Shown here: positions 47,077-62,437 of the stretch, piece after piece
Numbering within the stretch: position 1 is the first letter of the stretch
How the letters are laid out: each line of letters opens with the position of its first letter
Origin: an uncultured Bacilli bacterium
GTDB taxonomy: Bacteria > Bacillota_I > Bacilli_A > RF39 > UBA660
Length of the DNA stretch: 62,437 bases
Reading direction: 5' to 3'
Assembly (NCBI GenBank): GCA_944332555.1
Contig: CALVKF010000003.1
Coordinates: 1-62,437, forward strand
Notes under the pieces: generated by a model
What the model was told of the DNA's origin: nothing
The model's input: only the letters and a program-made list of their open reading frames with translations
Database searches by the model: none
Made by a program: the position numbers and the translations under genes

Positions 47077-47424
47077 ATAATTCTTTATAAGCCATGTTCT
47101 GTACTTTCTTACGAAAGTGGCAAATATTTATCTCCTGCAAGCAGGCCCTATTTCAGTTTGATTCCTGAAATAGAACTCCCCTACCATAATTTGGGTTTCT
47201 CACTCGTGGGGTTTACCGCGTTCCACTTAGCTTGTTTCCAAACTAACTCGTCTCTATGGCACTTTATGTTTACTAAAACCATTTGACAGGTTTCCTCAAC
47301 GCCGTTAGCCTAAGCTACCCTAGGTTATTTTTTCCCTAGGCACGAACACTACAAACATCACAGCTTGTGTGAGCATGGACTTTCCTCTACATTACAATAT
47401 ATGCAGCATTTGCCCAAGAATTAT
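47077..47424 (-). ncRNA. rnpB: RNase P RNA, type B
   Basis: On the minus strand: GAGGAAAGTCCATGCTC (P4 5' strand), GTGGAACGCGGTAAACCCC, ACAGAACATGGCTTA (P4 3' strand). P1 pairs ATAATTCTT with AAGAATTAT. It is adjacent to gpsB as in B. subtilis. Confidence 0.93.
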
Positions 47425-57429: not shown

Positions 57430-58388
57430 TATTCCCTTACCTCTCTTTTTATTAATTTAGCATGAAGTACTACTCTTTCTTCATCATTATAACAAGTTGA
57501 TAAAGTAAGAATTTTATCTTCTGCACTAAATTCAACATTAAAATCATATTGACTTCTACTCTTTAACATATTAATAAAATCTAAAAAATCTGTATCATTA
57601 CTAAATTTAACTTGTAAGTAATCACTAGTTGTAGGTATATGATAAACACTAAATACTTGCCATAAGGTATTTTCAGTTGGTGTTGATAATTTCACAACAT
57701 GATTATTGATATCATTAAACCAATCACTATTAAAGATATTTTTTAGGGAACCAAACATTGTTCCATTAAGTCTTCCATGAGCATAAATTATGGTATTTTT
57801 ATCAAGTTCATTTATATTATTTCGATAATCTAAATATACCCAACCTGCTGAATTATATTCTTTATTAAAATCTCTTTTTAAATAATAATCATTATCACTA
57901 GTTTGCACAAATGGATAATTAATATTGGTGCCACTTACTTGAAGCCAGCCCTTAGTATCACTATTTATTTCTAAAAGATTAGAAAAATCAACATTAATTA
58001 AATTCATTTTGATATAATCCCAATATGGATTGGCAGGATCTTCTTCTACCGGAGGATTAACAATCTCTGTTGCTTCAGTATCCTCTACTTCTTCAACTAC
58101 CGCATTATCTGCAATTAACTCCATTTGCGCATAGGTTTTATCGGAATCAATTTTCCAAGCCAGTATTTGATAACCGGAAAATGACGCAATACCTAAACAA
58201 ACTAAAAATATACAAAATACCACGCATTTCATCAAAGATAGTTTTTTTTCAACTATCCTTTTTTGATACATTTTTTTCTTAGCCTTTTCGGCCTTTAACA
58301 TTGGCAGTATTACTTCATCTATATCATCTGGCATCAAGTATTCTAATAATTTATCATTTTTACTCTTCCCCATATAATCACTACTCAT
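57429..58388 (-). CDS. srtB: Class B sortase with an extended cytoplasmic N-terminus
   Basis: TM anchor, GWLQVSGTNINYPFVQTSDNDYYL, IIYAHG, catalytic TLSTC, RVVLHAKL. Confidence 0.88.
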   Translation of the reverse strand: MSSDYMGKSKNDKLLEYLMPDDIDEVILPMLKAEKAKKKMYQKRIVEKKLSLMKCVVFCIFLVCLGIASFSGYQILAWKIDSDKTYAQMELIADNAVVEEVEDTEATEIVNPPVEEDPANPYWDYIKMNLINVDFSNLLEINSDTKGWLQVSGTNINYPFVQTSDNDYYLKRDFNKEYNSAGWVYLDYRNNINELDKNTIIYAHGRLNGTMFGSLKNIFNSDWFNDINNHVVKLSTPTENTLWQVFSVYHIPTTSDYLQVKFSNDTDFLDFINMLKSRSQYDFNVEFSAEDKILTLSTCYNDEERVVLHAKLIKREVRE

Positions 58389-58887
58389 CTAAATTTAAAG
58401 TTATTTCTTTATTTTTAGCATCAACCATTCTGTAGGTTACACCACATTTATCAAATAATCTTTTAGATGCAATATTACCTTCAGTACCATTATATTTATC
58501 ACTTAAATAAACTACTTCTTTGATACCACATTGAATAATAGCTTTAGCACATTCATTACATGGAAATAAAGCTACATATATGCGTGCTCCTTCTAAATCT
58601 CTTCGATTACCACGGAAATTTAGTATAGCATTTAATTCCGCATGGCAAACATAAAAATACTTAGTATTTAGAGCATCTCCTTCTCTATCCCAAGGAAAAT
58701 CACTATCAGGAAATCCATTCGGAGTACCATTATAACCAATTGATAAAATCCGATTATCAGCTCCAACTATACAAGCTCCAACTTGAGTTGATGGATCTTT
58801 ACTTCTTAAAGCTGATAATTTAGCAACTCCCATAAAGTATTCATCCCAAGATAAATATTCTTTTCTTTGTTTATTGATGTTTTCCAT
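58381..58887 (-). CDS. comEB: dCMP deaminase (ComEB-type)
   Basis: CMP/dCMP deaminase zinc motifs HAELNAI and PCNECAK. GGGTGAGG RBS. Confidence 0.92.
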   Translation of the reverse strand: MENINKQRKEYLSWDEYFMGVAKLSALRSKDPSTQVGACIVGADNRILSIGYNGTPNGFPDSDFPWDREGDALNTKYFYVCHAELNAILNFRGNRRDLEGARIYVALFPCNECAKAIIQCGIKEVVYLSDKYNGTEGNIASKRLFDKCGVTYRMVDAKNKEITLNLDE

Positions 58888-58905
58888 ATTACCTCACCCT
58901 ACTAA

Positions 58906-58937
58906 CTATTGTATCAAAATATTGAAGTAAAATCTAT
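58906..58937. repeat. 32-bp direct repeat copy 1 (CTATTGTATCAAAATATTGAAGTAAAATCTAT), containing the comEB extended -10 promoter TGATACAAT on the minus strand
   Basis: Identical to 60069-60100. Confidence 0.95.
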
Positions 58938-58945
58938 ATTAATAA

Positions 58946-59078
58946 TGAAAAAAAAGTAATCATTCCTGATTACATATTATGATGGGTACCCCAGGCGAGA
59001 TGAATGCTCACATACTATAAGGTATGCTTACTGGCATTGCCAACACATCGTTATTCCTTCACGAGTACCACATCTATA
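58946..59078 (-). ncRNA. Candidate ~130-nt small RNA, or structured 3' UTR of the DUF3644 gene
   Basis: Extended -10 TGATATAAT (59084-59092) lies just after the DUF3644 stop. The segment is locally GC-richer. It has a closing helix GATG(T)GGTAC/GTACCCATC, internal hairpins (CATAC/GTATG, GGC/GCC), and then the terminator GTAATCA-GGAA-TGATTAC plus T8 (58948-58973). No ORF. Confidence 0.35.
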
Positions 59079-59104
59079 TAAATATTATATCACAAATTAC
59101 TAAA

Positions 59105-60043
59105 TTATGCACTTTTTTTATTATTAGCAAATTCTTCTATGTAAGTTTGACTAACATATTCAATTGTTATATCACTGTATTTATAAATTTTATTTGTAGA
59201 ATATGGAAATTGATAACAATAATCTTGATTATTTTTTATTCCTTTTTTTCTACAGATTTTTTGAAATGTATTCGAAGTAAAACCGTGATTTGGTCCAAGA
59301 GATAATTCCAATGTTTCTTTTATTTTCTTGATAACTTCAGTAGTTGTATATGGGTGTGTTTTTTCAATATCTTTTGGCACATTAATCATAGTCGCTTTGT
59401 TATCACCATTTTTTACTACTGTATATACAATATCCGCTTCAGATTCCTTTTTTGTAGCAACAAGCCTTAATGTTTGTCCTAAAGACTCATCAGAAGCCAA
59501 TTCATTTTTAATATTTTCAAGCAACAATAAATTGGTTGGATTTAATATTAAAGATGAAATATTATCATCATTTCCTGGATTTACTAAAGCTATATAAGGG
59601 GTCACTTTTTCATTCAAATTGTAATCTGGAAAATGTTTTTTAAAAAATCTATTATAATTTGTAAGACATCTTTGAAATGCTGGAGATAATATATAATCAT
59701 ATTCTGGCAAAATTAAATGTGTCGCTTTATTTCTTATATTTCTAATAAAAGATATATTATTTTTGGTTTTATCAGTAGTACTAGTAAAGATTTTTTCAAC
59801 ACATTCATCCAATCCTATAGTTCTATTTGAATCATCTTTATAATTAATAGCACTAATATTTTGATTTTTATTTATTAAATATGCCTTTAACAAAAGTTCC
59901 CAAGCATTACATATAAAAAAGCAAAAACCTTCTGTTCTATAGTTTATGGTAGGTTTATTAATAATTTCAATAGCCATTAAATACGCTTCTTCTGACTTAC
60001 TTAAAAGTGCATTTATATATTTATTCAACTCGACGCTGGTCAT
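59105..60043 (-). CDS. DUF3644-like protein
   Basis: N-terminal SKSEEAYLMAIEIINKPTINYRTEGFCFFICNAWELLLKAYL matches my recollection of the DUF3644 core (...YNKP...R...F.....AWELLLKA). Start set to ATG 60043, 9 nt after GAGGAG. Confidence 0.6.
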   Translation of the reverse strand: MTSVELNKYINALLSKSEEAYLMAIEIINKPTINYRTEGFCFFICNAWELLLKAYLINKNQNISAINYKDDSNRTIGLDECVEKIFTSTTDKTKNNISFIRNIRNKATHLILPEYDYILSPAFQRCLTNYNRFFKKHFPDYNLNEKVTPYIALVNPGNDDNISSLILNPTNLLLLENIKNELASDESLGQTLRLVATKKESEADIVYTVVKNGDNKATMINVPKDIEKTHPYTTTEVIKKIKETLELSLGPNHGFTSNTFQKICRKKGIKNNQDYCYQFPYSTNKIYKYSDITIEYVSQTYIEEFANNKKSA

Positions 60044-60068
60044 TAATATCATCTCCTCATATAGTTAT

Positions 60069-60100
60069 CTATTGTATCAAAATATTGAAGTAAAATCTAT
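60069..60100. repeat. 32-bp direct repeat copy 2, providing the same TGATACAAT promoter to the DUF3644 gene
   Basis: Identical to 58906-58937. Confidence 0.95.
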
Positions 60101-60193
60101 GGGTTTACAGGAAATTTTACTAAATTACATCAAACCTATGATATAATAAATGCATAACATTTACATATATTTATATTCAAGGGGGTAATATAA

Positions 60194-60508
60194 ATGAACA
60201 CGCAAATAATTTATGATAATCCCAATAATACTTATTATATTTATAATGGAATATATAAAGGTAATAAGTTAAGTACAAAACTTATTACTGATGGTAATAC
60301 TTTTAAACAAGATTATACAGATGATTTAATAAAATATTATTTAGATAGTCCTGATGATAAAAGTATTAGATTAGAAAGTGGTAGTATTTATGAAATAGTT
60401 GTAACTAACGCAAGTTTCGTTACAATTCAAGGTTTTATTAATGATGAATTAGTAAGCACTAAAACATATTTTGAAAACAAAGAAAATTTAAAAAGAATAA
60501 AAAACTAA
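60194..60508 (+). CDS. Hypothetical 104-aa protein
   Basis: AAGGGGG RBS 8 nt upstream. No family recognised. Confidence 0.55.
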   Translation: MNTQIIYDNPNNTYYIYNGIYKGNKLSTKLITDGNTFKQDYTDDLIKYYLDSPDDKSIRLESGSIYEIVVTNASFVTIQGFINDELVSTKTYFENKENLKRIKN

Positions 60509-61221
60509 ATTTTATTCTTTTTAAGTGATAGTAAAATAATAAAGCCTACTACTATAAAAATTAGACTAATATATTGATTAATAGATAAGATAACATTTTG
60601 ATGAGACATTCTAAAAAAATCTAATATAAATTTAGCAAGGCCACAAAGGATAAAACTAATACCTATTGTTTGTGTGTTAAATTTATTTTGTAGCTTCTTA
60701 TTTAACATATAAATAAATATTAACAAAAATACTATTGATTCTACTAATTGGATAGGAAATAAAGAAACACCTACTGGGGCATGCAATGAATAATTATAAA
60801 CAACACTAAATATACCACTATATTTTATTCCATAACAACATCCCACTAAAAAACAACCTATTTTACCTATCGCATACATTAGAGGTATTGGCACAATAAA
60901 TAGACTCAATAAATCTTTAAATAATTTTTTAAATTGCAAAGAAAATAACAAAAGAAATAATAAAGCTCCAATTACTGCTCCATACGATGATAAACCTAAT
61001 TTAAAAAAATCAAATTCATCATATTTAGAATAATTTAAAATATATGTAAGTAATTTTGCTCCTAATAAGATACCTGTATTTTCATATAATAATAAACATA
61101 TTGTTTCAATTTTACTATATTTACTTGTTAATAATATAATAATTATATTACTAAGTAATGCAATTATTATAAATAAACTATATAATGGAAAATCTGTATT
61201 TATCATAATTAACCTGGACAA
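60505..61221 (-). CDS. Divergent Lgt-family (prolipoprotein diacylglyceryl transferase-like) membrane protein
   Basis: About 7 TM helices with SSYGAVIG, IGKIGCFLVGCCYG and FPIQLVES motifs. At 238 aa it is shorter than typical Lgt. Confidence 0.55.
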   Translation of the reverse strand: MSRLIMINTDFPLYSLFIIIALLSNIIIILLTSKYSKIETICLLLYENTGILLGAKLLTYILNYSKYDEFDFFKLGLSSYGAVIGALLFLLLFSLQFKKLFKDLLSLFIVPIPLMYAIGKIGCFLVGCCYGIKYSGIFSVVYNYSLHAPVGVSLFPIQLVESIVFLLIFIYMLNKKLQNKFNTQTIGISFILCGLAKFILDFFRMSHQNVILSINQYISLIFIVVGFIILLSLKKNKI

Positions 61222-61547
61222 GAACCCACTAAAGTATCACAAGCGTTATTTAAAAATGAGCCCATAAAGAAATAAATTCCTACAAATAATAAAAATACCA
61301 CAAATAATATTCTAATTAAAGAATTATTAGGACATGTTATAATACCAGTTACTATTGATATTAAGCAAATTACTAAAAAAACTTCTATATATTTAGGAAA
61401 TATTAGAGCCCCTAATAAACTTAAAATAAAGATAACTACACATGATATAGCTTCAACATCTTTTTCTTTTTTATTTATTTCAGTTCCACAATTAGGACAT
61501 TGTTTTGCATTTTTATCTATTTCTTGACCACATTTCTTGCATTTCAC
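61209..61547 (-). CDS. Zn-ribbon (CxxC...CxxC) membrane protein
   Basis: MKCKKCGQEIDKNAKQCPNCG followed by 2-3 TM helices. There is a 13-nt overlap with the Lgt-like gene. Confidence 0.65.
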   Translation of the reverse strand: MKCKKCGQEIDKNAKQCPNCGTEINKKEKDVEAISCVVIFILSLLGALIFPKYIEVFLVICLISIVTGIITCPNNSLIRILFVVFLLFVGIYFFMGSFLNNACDTLVGSCPG

Positions 61548-61659
61548 TAAAAACCACTTCCATATCTTAATATTATTATACCTTATTTTTAATTTTTAGA
61601 AAAGAAAAAAGCAATCATTTCTGATTACCTCTTTTTACATAATAATGTTTAATATATAT

Positions 61660-61989
61660 TCATTTATCACTAGAATCCATAAAATGTCTACACAAAACTC
61701 GAGATTTAGAATTAATTTGAAATTCTCCAGGGCAAAAGCCATAGATACCATTGTTTCTTTCACAATCACTATCACAGTAGTATTGTTCAACTACAGTTTC
61801 ATCATTACTTTGTTCGTAAGAATATGCTAATAAGATATCTAAAGATTTATAAAATTCTTCTTCAGTCACTGCACTATCCATAGTGCCATATTTTTGGCAT
61901 CGCATAAATTCACAGACATCATAACAAGCTTTTCGTACACTGTTTTCTGGAAAATCTTTAGTTAAATATTCATAATATTTTTTATCCAT
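61660..61989 (-). CDS. Cysteine-rich hypothetical 109-aa protein
   Basis: The ORF is followed by terminator GGTAATCA-GAAA-TGATTGC plus T6. No family recognised. Confidence 0.5.
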   Translation of the reverse strand: MDKKYYEYLTKDFPENSVRKACYDVCEFMRCQKYGTMDSAVTEEEFYKSLDILLAYSYEQSNDETVVEQYYCDSDCERNNGIYGFCPGEFQINSKSRVLCRHFMDSSDK

Positions 61990-62015
61990 ATTCCAAAACC
62001 TCTATAATATAAAAA

Positions 62016-62101
62016 TGGTGCCCGAGGTCGGACTTGAACCGACATGGTATTGCTACCAACGGATTTTGAGTCCGCCGCGTCTACCATTCCACCACTCGGG
62101 C
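62016..62101 (-). tRNA. tRNA-Leu (anticodon CAA) with long variable arm and encoded CCA
   Basis: Minus strand: GCCCGAG acceptor pairs with CTCGGGC, followed by ACCA. Anticodon loop CTCAAAA, variable arm GTTGGTAGCAATACCATG, T-loop GGTTCAAGTCC. Confidence 0.96.
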
Positions 62102-62140: not shown

Positions 62141-62437
62141 CATTTACTCATAATATTTCTTATCTTTTAGCTAAATTTTTATTAAGTTTATTAATTTTAT
62201 AAATATAAATAAAGAACTTTCTAATCTTGAAGGATAAGGTTCTTTTGATGCATGGTGAGAAAATCCATATTATTTTTTTTGAAAGAATAAATTCAAATTA
62301 AAGTAGTATTTAAAATATTTGAAGTAATTCATATTTTTGATTAACCATTATTATAAAATCCCGGAGTTTGCCACTTAACTTTTTATATAAAATGCATAAA
62401 AGTCCTATTTTTAGGTCTTTTTTTATTGCATTATATA

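What the first reader, a model, noticed from the sequence alone, without database searches (positions are those of the whole stretch)
58906..60100. 1.16-kb DUF3644 cassette bracketed by 32-bp direct repeats that duplicate the comEB promoter
An identical 32-mer, CTATTGTATCAAAATATTGAAGTAAAATCTAT, occurs at 58906-58937 and at 60069-60100.

Read on the minus strand, each copy contains an extended -10 promoter, TGATACAAT. Each sits about 20-25 nt upstream of an RBS. One copy drives the core gene comEB. The other drives a DUF3644-like gene.

That gene is followed by a candidate small RNA and a strong terminator.

The segment delimited by the repeats therefore looks like a self-contained inserted cassette of promoter, gene, RNA and terminator. 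It would have entered exactly at the comEB promoter and regenerated it.

A 32-bp duplication is far longer than typical transposase target-site duplications. It is more like an att core, yet no recombinase is present.

I recall DUF3644 proteins as uncharacterised and often found in variable or defence-type neighbourhoods.
Basis: seen in the sequence. Interest (0 to 1): 0.65.

Follow-up and report, generated by a model that had tools for sequence, protein, structure and literature searches.

The report
Inserted HEPN defence gene with partner sRNA
A 1.16-kb piece of foreign DNA carrying a predicted RNA-cutting defence gene and a previously undescribed small structured RNA has dropped in exactly between the comEB gene and its promoter, copying the 32-bp promoter so that both genes keep one; the gene-plus-RNA pair recurs in many unrelated genomes and phages.

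Summary
The exact 32-mer occurs only at 58906-58937 and 60069-60100.

**Insertion.** A 96%-identical relative (L111) has the predicted empty site. It shows one 32-mer joined to the window's right flank on one side and to comEB on the other. The 1,163-bp unit is therefore a true insertion polymorphism. The 32-mer is comEB's native extended -10 promoter, and a diverged copy sits upstream of comEB in another species.

**Cargo, part 1.** A 312-aa protein of the EC042_2821/DUF3644 HEPN family. It carries an invariant Rx4H motif and a C-terminal REase-like domain, and matches PADLOC candidate PDC-S19.

**Cargo, part 2.** A ~95-nt structured sRNA at 58980-59075 with its own promoter. I found this RNA beside DUF3644 homologues in 7 of 7 unrelated chromosomal contexts and in 13 of 13 Gram-positive phage, satellite and plasmid loci. 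Covariation is strong and Rfam has no match.

**Repeats.** They are not a fixed att core. A second filled/empty pair (L120/L170) shows the same module bracketed by a different duplication of at least 41 bp, a tRNA terminator.

**Open questions.** The insertion mechanism and the RNA's role (antitoxin-like partner, as in AbiF/RCd22 or AbiV/abiV2) are inferred, not shown.

The parts
58938..60100 (.). Inserted unit: 1131 bp of foreign DNA plus one 32-bp copy of the target (1163 bp). Absent from the empty-site relative L111.
   Evidence: L111 joins window 58937 and below directly to window 60101 and above through one 32-mer.
60069..60100 (-). Upstream copy of the 32-bp comEB promoter (TAGATT-17 nt-TGATACAAT). 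It now sits where the module's own extended -10 promoter sits in other genomes, and presumably drives the HEPN gene.
   Evidence: Promoter function is inferred from sequence and position only.
60044..60068 (-). Short leader with the Shine-Dalgarno sequence GAGGAG (60053-60058). Homology to other DUF3644 cassettes begins here.
59105..60043 (-). 312-aa HEPN protein (an alternative ATG at 60052 gives 315 aa). N-terminal DUF3644/EC042_2821 HEPN domain with RNKATH (R104...H109), plus a C-terminal EC042_2821 REase-like domain. Matches PADLOC PDC-S19.
   Evidence: PF12358 E 2.6e-43; PF18740 E 2.1e-11; PDC-S19 E 2.3e-70
59084..59092 (-). Extended -10 promoter (TGATATAAT) of the sRNA, 8 nt before its first base. 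An equivalent element is present in every other context.
   Evidence: Sequence only; the TSS has not been mapped.
58980..59075 (-). ~95-nt structured sRNA: a long closing helix P1 and two hairpins P2 and P3. It is the conserved partner of DUF3644 genes and is not in Rfam.
   Evidence: 112 and 97.6 bits; covariation; no Rfam family
58948..58973 (-). Intrinsic terminator-like hairpin GUAAUCA-GGAA-UGAUUAC followed by U8. It is specific to this lineage's cassette; elsewhere P1 plus a U-run terminates the sRNA. A near-copy lies at 61605-61628.
   Evidence: -6.8 kcal/mol
58906..58937 (-). Downstream copy of the 32-mer: the native comEB promoter. It is present once in L111 and in diverged form upstream of comEB in L021.
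58381..58887 (-). comEB (dCMP deaminase), the core gene whose promoter was the target. It is not part of the insert.

Best explanation
**What it is.** The segment 58938-60100 is a recent insertion, in a chicken-gut uncultured Bacilli species, of a two-part HEPN module.

- Part 1 is a 312-aa EC042_2821/DUF3644-family HEPN protein: a predicted RNase effector with an Rx4H motif and a C-terminal REase-like domain.
- Part 2 is an independently transcribed ~95-nt structured sRNA that always accompanies this protein family in Gram-positive bacteria and their phages and satellites.

**Where it landed.** The DNA landed between the comEB promoter and the comEB ribosome-binding site, and 32 bp of target were duplicated. 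Those 32 bp cover the whole -35 to -10 region.

- The upstream copy now stands exactly where the module's own extended -10 promoter stands elsewhere, and would transcribe the HEPN gene.
- The downstream copy, lying behind the cassette's terminator, would keep comEB expressed.

**How the module probably works (inferred).** The protein is a toxic or defensive RNase of the kind shown for the DUF3644 proteins HEC-08 and Ishtar. The sRNA binds it as a cognate regulator or antitoxin, by analogy with AbiF/RCd22 and AbiV/abiV2. It does not appear to act by antisense pairing.

**How it got there (inferred).** There is no element-encoded recombinase and no fixed att core. I consider two routes:

- Microhomology-assisted illegitimate insertion with a long target duplication. 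AATAG is shared by the two promoters at the upstream joint.
- Campbell-type single crossover of a circular copy that already carried a short copy of the target.

Once flanked by repeats, the cassette can be lost or regained by repeat recombination.

**Status.** Shown: the insertion polymorphism, the duplication of the native promoter, family membership, and the gene-RNA linkage with RNA structure. Inferred: promoter use, RNase and defence activity, the RNA's role, and the insertion chemistry.
For: **Repeat.** It is exact and unique.

**Empty site.** L111 has the junction precisely at the repeat borders.

**Native promoter.** A diverged version of the 32-mer lies upstream of comEB in L021, a species with 76% comEB identity.

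**Protein.** It matches PF12358, PF18740 and PDC-S19. R104 and H109 stay invariant down to 22% identity. Published work gives HEPN assignment and defence roles for DUF3644 proteins.

**Module travels as a unit.** Nucleotide homology to cassettes in other genomes runs from the SD through the gene and the sRNA. It does not cover the repeats or the terminator.

**sRNA linkage.**
- The sRNA lies beside the gene in 7 of 7 chromosomal contexts.
- It lies beside the gene in 12 of 12 phage/satellite loci and in 1 Staphylococcus plasmid.
- No other copy was found in about 1.2 Mb of unrelated loci or elsewhere in the window.

**sRNA structure.** 93% of cells are paired against 71.5% in shuffles. 17 of 25 pairs carry double changes. 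Slid controls give about 42%.

**sRNA transcription signals.** It has its own extended -10 promoter and a U-tail in both orientations.

**Not antisense.** There is no sRNA-mRNA complementarity beyond shuffles.

**Second filled/empty pair.** L120/L170 carries an unrelated duplication of at least 41 bp.
Against: - No expression data of usable depth exist. RNA-derived Logan contigs are sparse, and two of them span the terminator and the 32-mer, so read-through into comEB cannot be excluded.
- No biochemical evidence exists for RNase activity, toxicity or defence in this protein.
- The AlphaFold model was unusable (pLDDT 49).
- L011 and L014 carry an IS element inside the sRNA promoter next to an intact HEPN gene. 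This is awkward for an essential-antitoxin role, unless the RNA is still expressed or the assembly is chimeric.
- L005 keeps the sRNA but only about 35 nt of a DUF3644 gene.
- The polarity of L111 versus the window could be deletion between the repeats rather than a never-occupied site.
- No enzyme is known here that makes 32-41 nt staggered breaks.
Confidence: 0.6

Rival explanations
1. The cassette is an integrase-less, att-flanked mini-element (CIME-like). A site-specific recombinase encoded elsewhere, for example by a satellite, prophage or IME, moves it, and the 32-mer is the recombination core.
For: - The direct repeats are exact.
- In phages and satellites the same module sits right next to the integrase at the element end.
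- In L120 the repeat has a perfect core preceded, in the downstream copy only, by a diverged tRNA-3'/spacer-like arm, as in attP-derived arms.
- The space upstream of comEB holds integrative-element scars in L005 and L021: tRNA 3' fragments and Mob_Pre.
Against: - The repeat sequences at the two proven insertion sites are unrelated and differ in length (32 versus at least 41 nt).
- Insert end-points are not conserved.
- Three contexts have no repeats.
- No integrase lies in or beside the cassette.
- The 32-mer was found next to no other cargo.
Confidence: 0.15
2. Integration was RecA-type. A circular copy of the cassette that already carried a short copy of the target crossed over once with the chromosome (insertion-duplication). 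The repeats are then the homology used, not a target-site duplication made by staggered cutting.
For: - The L120 downstream repeat copy is preceded by a homeologous (roughly 60-65% identical by eye) version of the tRNA-3'/spacer. The upstream copy is fully host-like. This is exactly what a single crossover inside the conserved hairpin would give.
- Competence genes are present in the clade: comEB here and ComEC in L023.
- Repeat-flanked cassettes can excise as circles by the same route.
Against: - 32 bp is near the lower limit for RecA-dependent exchange.
- The route does not explain how the first circle acquired the target copy.
- In the window there is no homeologous extension beyond the 32-mer.
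Confidence: 0.3
3. The structured RNA is a cis-regulatory leader (riboswitch-like) or an independent housekeeping RNA belonging to comEB, and its position next to the DUF3644 gene is coincidental.
For: It lies upstream of comEB and is followed by a terminator hairpin about 57 nt before the start codon. L005 keeps it without an intact DUF3644 gene.
Against: - It is absent upstream of comEB in L111, L021, L022 and L023.
- It is present next to DUF3644 genes beside completely different neighbours, and on the opposite strand in phages.
- L005 still has the last ~35 nt of a DUF3644 ORF in front of it.
Confidence: 0.03
4. The sRNA acts as an antisense (type I-like) regulator of the HEPN mRNA rather than as a protein-binding partner.
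For: In the 13 phage, satellite and plasmid loci the sRNA is convergent with the gene. It abuts or overlaps the gene's 3' end in most of them and lies within about 70 nt in the Corynebacterium phage.
Against: - In the 7 chromosomal contexts it is co-directional and non-overlapping.
- Predicted sRNA-mRNA duplexes are no better than shuffled controls.
- The high sequence conservation of unpaired regions across 22-35%-identical proteins suggests a protein-recognised scaffold.
Confidence: 0.12

Closest known systems
AbiF(Cd)/RCd22 of Clostridioides difficile (PMC12373285) and AbiV/abiV2 of Lactococcus (bioRxiv 10.1101/2024.05.05.592566): HEPN RNase plus cognate non-coding RNA
   Same: A single HEPN-domain effector gene sits next to a dedicated small structured RNA. 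The pair is carried on prophages and other mobile DNA of Firmicutes. In AbiF the RNA neutralises the protein by direct binding.
   Different: - The HEPN family differs: EC042_2821/DUF3644 here, not Abi_2 or AbiV.
- The RNA is unrelated, with no abiF-motif or other Rfam hit.
- The RNA lies downstream (tandem or convergent) with its own promoter, rather than upstream in the leader.
- Nothing has been tested experimentally here.
DUF3644-HEPN defence proteins HEC-08 (bioRxiv 10.1101/2024.01.29.577857) and Ishtar Ist1/Ist2 (bioRxiv 10.64898/2026.07.06.735840); PADLOC candidate PDC-S19
   Same: They share an N-terminal DUF3644 HEPN domain with Rx4-6H and a monogenic, patchily distributed protein part lying between core genes without an integrase. 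The window protein matches PDC-S19 HMMs at E 2e-70.
   Different: - HEC-08 has zinc-finger C-terminal domains.
- Ishtar's C-terminal domain is described only as an alpha/beta domain of unknown function.
- Neither paper reports a partner RNA in the passages I read.
- Sequence relatedness of the window protein to Ist1/Ist2 or HEC-08 was not tested.
Type III toxin-antitoxin systems (ToxIN, AbiQ)
   Same: A protein endoribonuclease is paired with an adjacent RNA partner and serves in abortive-infection defence on mobile DNA.
   Different: Type III antitoxins are tandem repeats upstream of the toxin, and the toxin processes them. Here the RNA is a single-copy ~95-nt three-helix molecule with its own promoter and no repeats.
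Cis-mobilisable elements (CIMEs) and other att-flanked integrase-less islands; insertion-duplication by Campbell integration
   Same: A small cargo is bracketed by exact direct repeats of the target, with no recombinase inside, and the target function is regenerated.
   Different: Repeat sequence and length differ between insertion sites. The element has no conserved ends and no partner integrase has been identified.
Integron gene cassettes
   Same: Both are single-gene, promoter-less-style defence cargo followed by a structured element and expressed from an external promoter. Ishtar homologues occur in Vibrio integrons.
   Different: There is no IntI and no attI or attC core sites. The structured element has its own promoter and U-tail and flips strand relative to the gene, so it behaves as an RNA gene.

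Membership tests
HEPN superfamily, EC042_2821/DUF3644 family | Match to the DUF3644 (PF12358) profile | tested here: met
   E 2.6e-43, 148 bits against a cutoff of 27.6, residues 16-146
HEPN superfamily, EC042_2821/DUF3644 family | Conserved Rx4-6H catalytic motif | tested here: met
   RNKATH (R104-H109) is invariant in 23 close homologues and in 13 sequences down to 22% identity, including phage, Flavobacterium and Mycolicibacterium homologues
HEPN superfamily, EC042_2821/DUF3644 family | C-terminal EC042_2821-type REase-like domain (PF18740) | tested here: met
   E 2.1e-11, residues 228-302. Catalytic REase residues were not examined.
HEPN superfamily, EC042_2821/DUF3644 family | HEPN fold and RNase activity | tested here: inconclusive
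   The AlphaFold2 model from a shallow alignment had pLDDT 49. There is no PDB sequence relative. Activity is not testable here.
PADLOC PDC-S19 (candidate single-gene defence system) | Full-length match to the PDC-S19 HMMs | tested here: met
   PDLC04952 at E 2.3e-70, residues 11-304 against profile positions 3-310 of 328
PADLOC PDC-S19 (candidate single-gene defence system) | Protection against phage or plasmid | not testable with these tools
The literature shows defence for other DUF3644 proteins only.
Type III toxin-antitoxin | RNA partner encoded adjacent to the toxin gene | tested here: met
   The sRNA lies beside the gene in 20 of 20 Gram-positive loci examined
Type III toxin-antitoxin | Antitoxin made of tandem repeats upstream of the toxin and processed by it | tested here: not met
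   The RNA is single-copy, lies downstream or convergent, and has its own promoter. There are no tandem repeats.
Type III toxin-antitoxin | RNA binds and neutralises the protein | not testable with these tools
   This needs co-expression or EMSA
Known RNA families (Rfam 15, including the abiF motif) | Covariance-model match | tested here: not met
   No hit at E<=10 over 58700-60300. No hit on the RNA in four phage loci at E<=1.
Site-specific integrative element (att-flanked) | Identical core sequence at both ends | tested here: met
   32 of 32 nt identical
Site-specific integrative element (att-flanked) | Cognate integrase in or next to the element | tested here: not met
   The only genes between the repeats are the HEPN gene and the sRNA. 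The neighbours are comEB, a 104-aa ORF and LGT.
Site-specific integrative element (att-flanked) | Same core and element ends at independent insertion sites | tested here: not met
   L120/L170 use an unrelated core of at least 41 nt. The insert ends differ. L125, L150 and L153 have no repeats.
IS/transposon | Transposase, terminal inverted repeats, short fixed-length TSD | tested here: not met
   There is no transposase and no terminal inverted repeats. The duplications are 32 and at least 41 nt.

The most novel reading that the evidence does not exclude
DUF3644/EC042_2821 HEPN proteins of Gram-positive bacteria and their phages and satellites are not monogenic systems. They would be obligate two-component protein-RNA immune modules, in which a so-far undescribed ~90-nt sRNA is the antitoxin or sensor. 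Such modules would spread as integrase-less cassettes that carry, or create, a short copy of a host regulatory signal (promoter or terminator). That copy would serve both as the integration homology and to keep host and cargo genes expressed.
Probability: 0.25. Interest if true: 0.8.

Novelty: new variant of a known kind. Interest (0 to 1): 0.68.

Why it matters
**A hidden RNA component.** DUF3644-type HEPN proteins have just begun to be shown as anti-phage (HEC-08) and anti-plasmid (Ishtar) effectors, and they are treated as single-gene systems. A strictly co-inherited structured RNA would change that picture. It is conserved from chicken-gut Bacilli to Streptococcus satellites, Staphylococcus, Listeria, Flavonifractor and Corynebacterium phages. 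If it is a functional partner, these systems have a hidden RNA component that heterologous tests may omit or include by accident. It would also add a third, unrelated case of HEPN RNase plus cognate ncRNA beside AbiF and AbiV, and a new RNA family for Rfam.

**Integrase-less spread.** The two filled/empty pairs give clean examples of a defence cassette entering core intergenic DNA without a recombinase. Each insertion duplicates exactly the regulatory signal it would otherwise have separated. This makes the question of how isolated defence genes spread outside islands directly testable.

Tried and rejected
- **Rfam.** Scans of the window and of the cassette at E<=10, and of four phage loci, found no family for the RNA.
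- **Exact-pattern scans.** The 32-mer and two sRNA core patterns gave nothing in IMG/VR viral contigs. blastn of the RNA against phage and plasmid collections gave nothing; only the covariance model found the phage copies.
- **Excision or polymorphism.** Logan contigs (k=31) break at the repeat and cannot show an empty junction. Cassette depth equals flank depth in run X1, and no raw-read runs were available.
- **RNA-seq.** Only a few low-depth contigs exist, so there is no usable TSS or abundance information.
- **Antisense pairing.** sRNA pairing with the HEPN mRNA is no better than shuffles.
- **Structure prediction.** pLDDT was 49 because all retrievable homologues are at least 77% identical. 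No fold search was done.
- **PDB sequence search.** Nothing was found.
- **ATAGATTTT as a target motif.** I considered that ATAGATTTT, shared by the 32-mer and the L147 flanks, marks a target. TAGATTTT occurs 25 times in the window, so the lead is weak.
- **SRP, 6S, riboswitch or attC identity for the RNA.** I rejected these on sequence and Rfam grounds, and because it carries its own promoter and U-tail in either orientation.
- **Wider phyletic reach.** Models R1 and R2 found no copy next to the Legionella, Flavobacterium or Mycolicibacterium plasmid homologues.
Full report
**1. Observation**

The 32-mer occurs exactly twice in the window, at 58906-58937 and 60069-60100. No further copy appears even at three mismatches, and none is expected by chance. 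The copies are 1163 bp apart, and the match extends to 35 nt with one mismatch.

On the minus strand each copy reads ATAGATTTTACTTCAATATTTTGATACAATAG. This is an extended -10 (TGATACAAT) with a -35-like TAGATT 17 nt upstream.

- The left copy lies 18 nt before the comEB start (58887).
- The right copy lies 10 nt before a GAGGAG Shine-Dalgarno sequence and 25 nt before the ATG at 60043 of a 312-aa ORF.

The arrangement is not an assembly accident. More than 25 independently assembled metagenome contigs carry both copies.

**2. It is a real insertion polymorphism**

One scan of JGI metagenome contigs with the 32-mer returned a single locus, L111.

- L111 is 95.9% identical to the window across aldolase-srtB-comEB.
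- It has one 32-mer.
- On the far side of that 32-mer comes the sequence that in the window follows the right-hand copy. This is the divergent promoter of the 104-aa gene, matched at 90%.

The inserted unit is therefore 1131 bp of foreign DNA plus one 32-bp copy.

A more distant species (L021, 76% comEB identity) has a diverged form of the same promoter directly upstream of comEB: CTAGATTTTACCTTAAATATTTGATAGAATAA. The comEB-proximal copy is therefore native, and the duplication copied a host promoter.

The organism is an uncultured chicken-gut member of the Bacilli.

**3. The protein**

- The ORF matches Pfam DUF3644 (E 2.6e-43) and the EC042_2821 REase-like C-terminal domain (E 2.1e-11).
- It matches the PADLOC candidate system PDC-S19 over its full length (E 2.3e-70).
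- DUF3644 was assigned to the HEPN superfamily as the EC042_2821 family, fused to wHTH, REase or ZnR domains and found in R-M operons (PMC3710099).
- The Rx4H motif RNKATH (R104...H109) is invariant among close homologues. It stays invariant in an alignment reaching 22% identity that includes phage, Flavobacterium and Mycolicibacterium homologues.
- DUF3644-HEPN proteins have shown defence activity. HEC-08 does so, and mutating the motif's histidine abolished its defence. The anti-plasmid Ishtar proteins are monogenic and lie between core genes without an integrase.
- A structure prediction from the shallow alignment failed (pLDDT 49), and there is no PDB sequence relative.

**4. The small RNA is the key extra finding**

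Close homologues of the protein (77-86% identity) lie in at least six other, mutually unrelated chromosomal neighbourhoods:

- sigma factor | LysR
- tRNA-Pro/VanZ-RDD | 253-aa gene
- MutS-NUDIX | RNase HII
- rhomboid | RNHCP
- Suf-CsoR | 476-aa gene
- Mob_Pre-CHAT | GluRS

Nucleotide homology to the window's cassette runs from the Shine-Dalgarno sequence through the gene and on through a ~95-nt element 20-60 nt after the stop codon. It does not cover the repeats or the terminator.

In every context the element has its own extended -10 box about 7-8 nt before its first base. It ends in a long closing helix, usually followed by a U-run. In the window the promoter is at 59084-59092 and the RNA at 58980-59075.

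A covariance model built from eight sequences gave these results:

- One copy in the window, and none in about 1.2 Mb of unrelated loci.
- A copy at the stop codon of every distant homologue (28-35% protein identity) that I fetched from phage records. These were Streptococcus satellite prophages, Staphylococcus, Listeria, Flavonifractor and Corynebacterium phages, 12 of 12.
- A copy beside the homologue on a Staphylococcus epidermidis plasmid.
- In all of those loci the RNA lies on the opposite strand, convergent with the gene.

On the 21-sequence alignment:

| Measure | Value |
|---|---|
| Cells paired | 93% (71.5% in shuffles) |
| Pairs with compensatory double changes | 17 of 25 |
| Cells paired with partners slid 1-3 columns | about 42% |

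That alignment was fitted to the model, which favours the structure. Hand inspection of individual MFE folds shows the same helices with compensatory changes.

Rfam 15 has no family for it. The RNA shows no antisense complementarity to the HEPN mRNA beyond shuffled controls.

I therefore read it as a protein-recognised partner RNA. The closest precedents are the HEPN proteins AbiF with RCd22 (direct-binding RNA antitoxin, PMC12373285) and AbiV with the abiV2 ncRNA.

Homologues on Legionella, Flavobacterium and Mycolicibacterium plasmids gave no hit with either model. The association is so far shown only for Firmicutes and a Corynebacterium phage.

**5. What the repeats are**

They are not a fixed att core.

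In L120/L135 the same module is bracketed by an unrelated exact repeat of 40-46 nt. This is the terminator hairpin downstream of a tRNA-Pro gene.

I found the matching empty site, L170. It is 94.6% and 92.1% identical on the two sides and has one hairpin copy.

L112 and L147 have diverged repeats, a terminator and a promoter-like sequence respectively. L125, L150 and L153 have none.

The insert end-points relative to the conserved module differ between the window and L120. So no conserved element ends exist.

In both proven cases the duplicated stretch is precisely the regulatory signal that the insertion would otherwise have separated from its gene.

In the window the upstream 32-mer's -10 occupies the position of the module's own -10 in other genomes. 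The two promoters share AATAG at the joint; compare TGCTATAATAGTAACT in L147 with TGATACAATAGATAACT here. This suggests a microhomology-assisted joint.

In L120 the downstream repeat copy is preceded by a diverged tRNA-3'/spacer-like stretch, whereas the upstream copy is fully host-like. That is what a single crossover of a circular donor carrying a homeologous copy of the target would produce.

I cannot decide between a long target duplication and Campbell-type integration. I rank a dedicated site-specific recombinase acting in trans third.

**6. Population data**

Logan contigs (k=31) break exactly at the 32-mer, as expected for a 32-nt repeat, so an empty junction is invisible to them. Cassette depth equals flank depth in run X1 and is close to it in X4. 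No excision signal could be sought, because no raw-read run was available.

Variants exist:

- L005 keeps the sRNA (93.5% identical, with a 5' half like other lineages), the terminator and the 32-mer. It retains only about 35 nt of a DUF3644 ORF, preceded by a hairpin like the L120 repeat and a tRNA 3' fragment.
- L011 and L014 have a DDE transposase IS inserted inside the sRNA's -10 box, at 59085.
- L012 has an IS110 element at 60386.

These show the slot is recombinationally active. They also caution against assuming the sRNA is an indispensable antitoxin.

**7. Verdict**

The att-core idea is not supported.

The cargo is a new variant of a known kind, a HEPN effector with a cognate ncRNA, with a new RNA family and an unusual integrase-less mode of entry.

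Function and mechanism remain inferences. The distribution, the empty sites and the RNA structure are shown.

Noticed in passing
L167 616-706(-) and L171 919-1008(-): Staphylococcus phage StB20-like and the related S. epidermidis plasmid pSep6-3 carry a second copy of the sRNA (72.8 and 65.2 bits with R2). It lies directly downstream of a CapA-family gene, about 1.8 kb from the copy at the DUF3644 gene.
   Followed up: partly
L111 2794-3530: The empty-site relative carries a broken Fic/DOC-like gene, split into 128-aa and 69-aa ORFs, between the divergent promoter and the homologue of the 104-aa gene. It also lacks the LGT and zinc-ribbon genes (window 60505-62000).
   Followed up: no
L011 1286-3260; L014; window 59085: A 609-aa DDE_Tnp_1 transposase IS sits inside the sRNA's -10 box in at least two samples. 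In L011 the far side of the IS joins to window 62356-62437. This is either a rearrangement or an assembly chimera through IS copies.
   Followed up: partly
L012 341-1627; window ~60386: An IS110-family transposase is inserted in the 104-aa divergent gene in one sample.
   Followed up: no
L005 121-230; L021 3850-3900; L023 6825-6897: tRNA 3'-end fragments (..CACCAGATTGATA) lie upstream of comEB in L005 and L021. The intact tRNA (cmscan: tRNA; my reading tRNA-Arg CCT) is in L023. These look like att scars of tRNA-targeting integrative elements; L021 also has Mob_Pre and radical-SAM genes there.
   Followed up: partly
window 61605-61628 (-): The terminator after the 109-aa ORF (GGTAATCAGAAATGATTGCTTTTTT) closely resembles the cassette's terminator at 58948-58973. 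The cassette's terminator may therefore have a local origin.
   Followed up: partly
window 58898-59037, run X28: A metatranscriptome contig with Illumina adapter on both sides covers exactly 58898-59037, from mid-sRNA through the terminator and 32-mer to the comEB RBS. It is either read-through RNA or DNA carry-over.
   Followed up: no
window 47083-47421 (-); 62016-62101 (-): RNase P RNA class B (300 bits) and tRNA-Leu(CAA). These are ordinary housekeeping RNAs, consistent with a Firmicutes chromosome.
   Followed up: no
L160 1029-1115; L161 3179-3328: There is a RatA-like antitoxin RNA hit (49.4 bits, at gathering score) in Streptococcus satellite Javan127, and rli48 (178 bits) in the Listeria phage. 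Both lie near the DUF3644 module.
   Followed up: no
L004 2033-2815; L108 2938-3558: A second variable slot lies about 2 kb away, between the Macro/ORF6N genes and the zinc-ribbon gene. Depending on the strain it holds a 260-aa Phage_integrase+LysM gene, an ORF6N gene, or a DUF3800 gene.
   Followed up: no
L147 2416-2450 and 3653-3685: The promoter after the L147 cassette (ATAGATTTTTTATTAAAAGTTTGATACAAT) matches the window's 32-mer at 24 of 32 positions, although the downstream gene is different (RNHCP). A decayed copy lies upstream of the cassette. TAGATTTT is frequent in these genomes, so this may be a shared promoter style rather than a target motif.
   Followed up: partly
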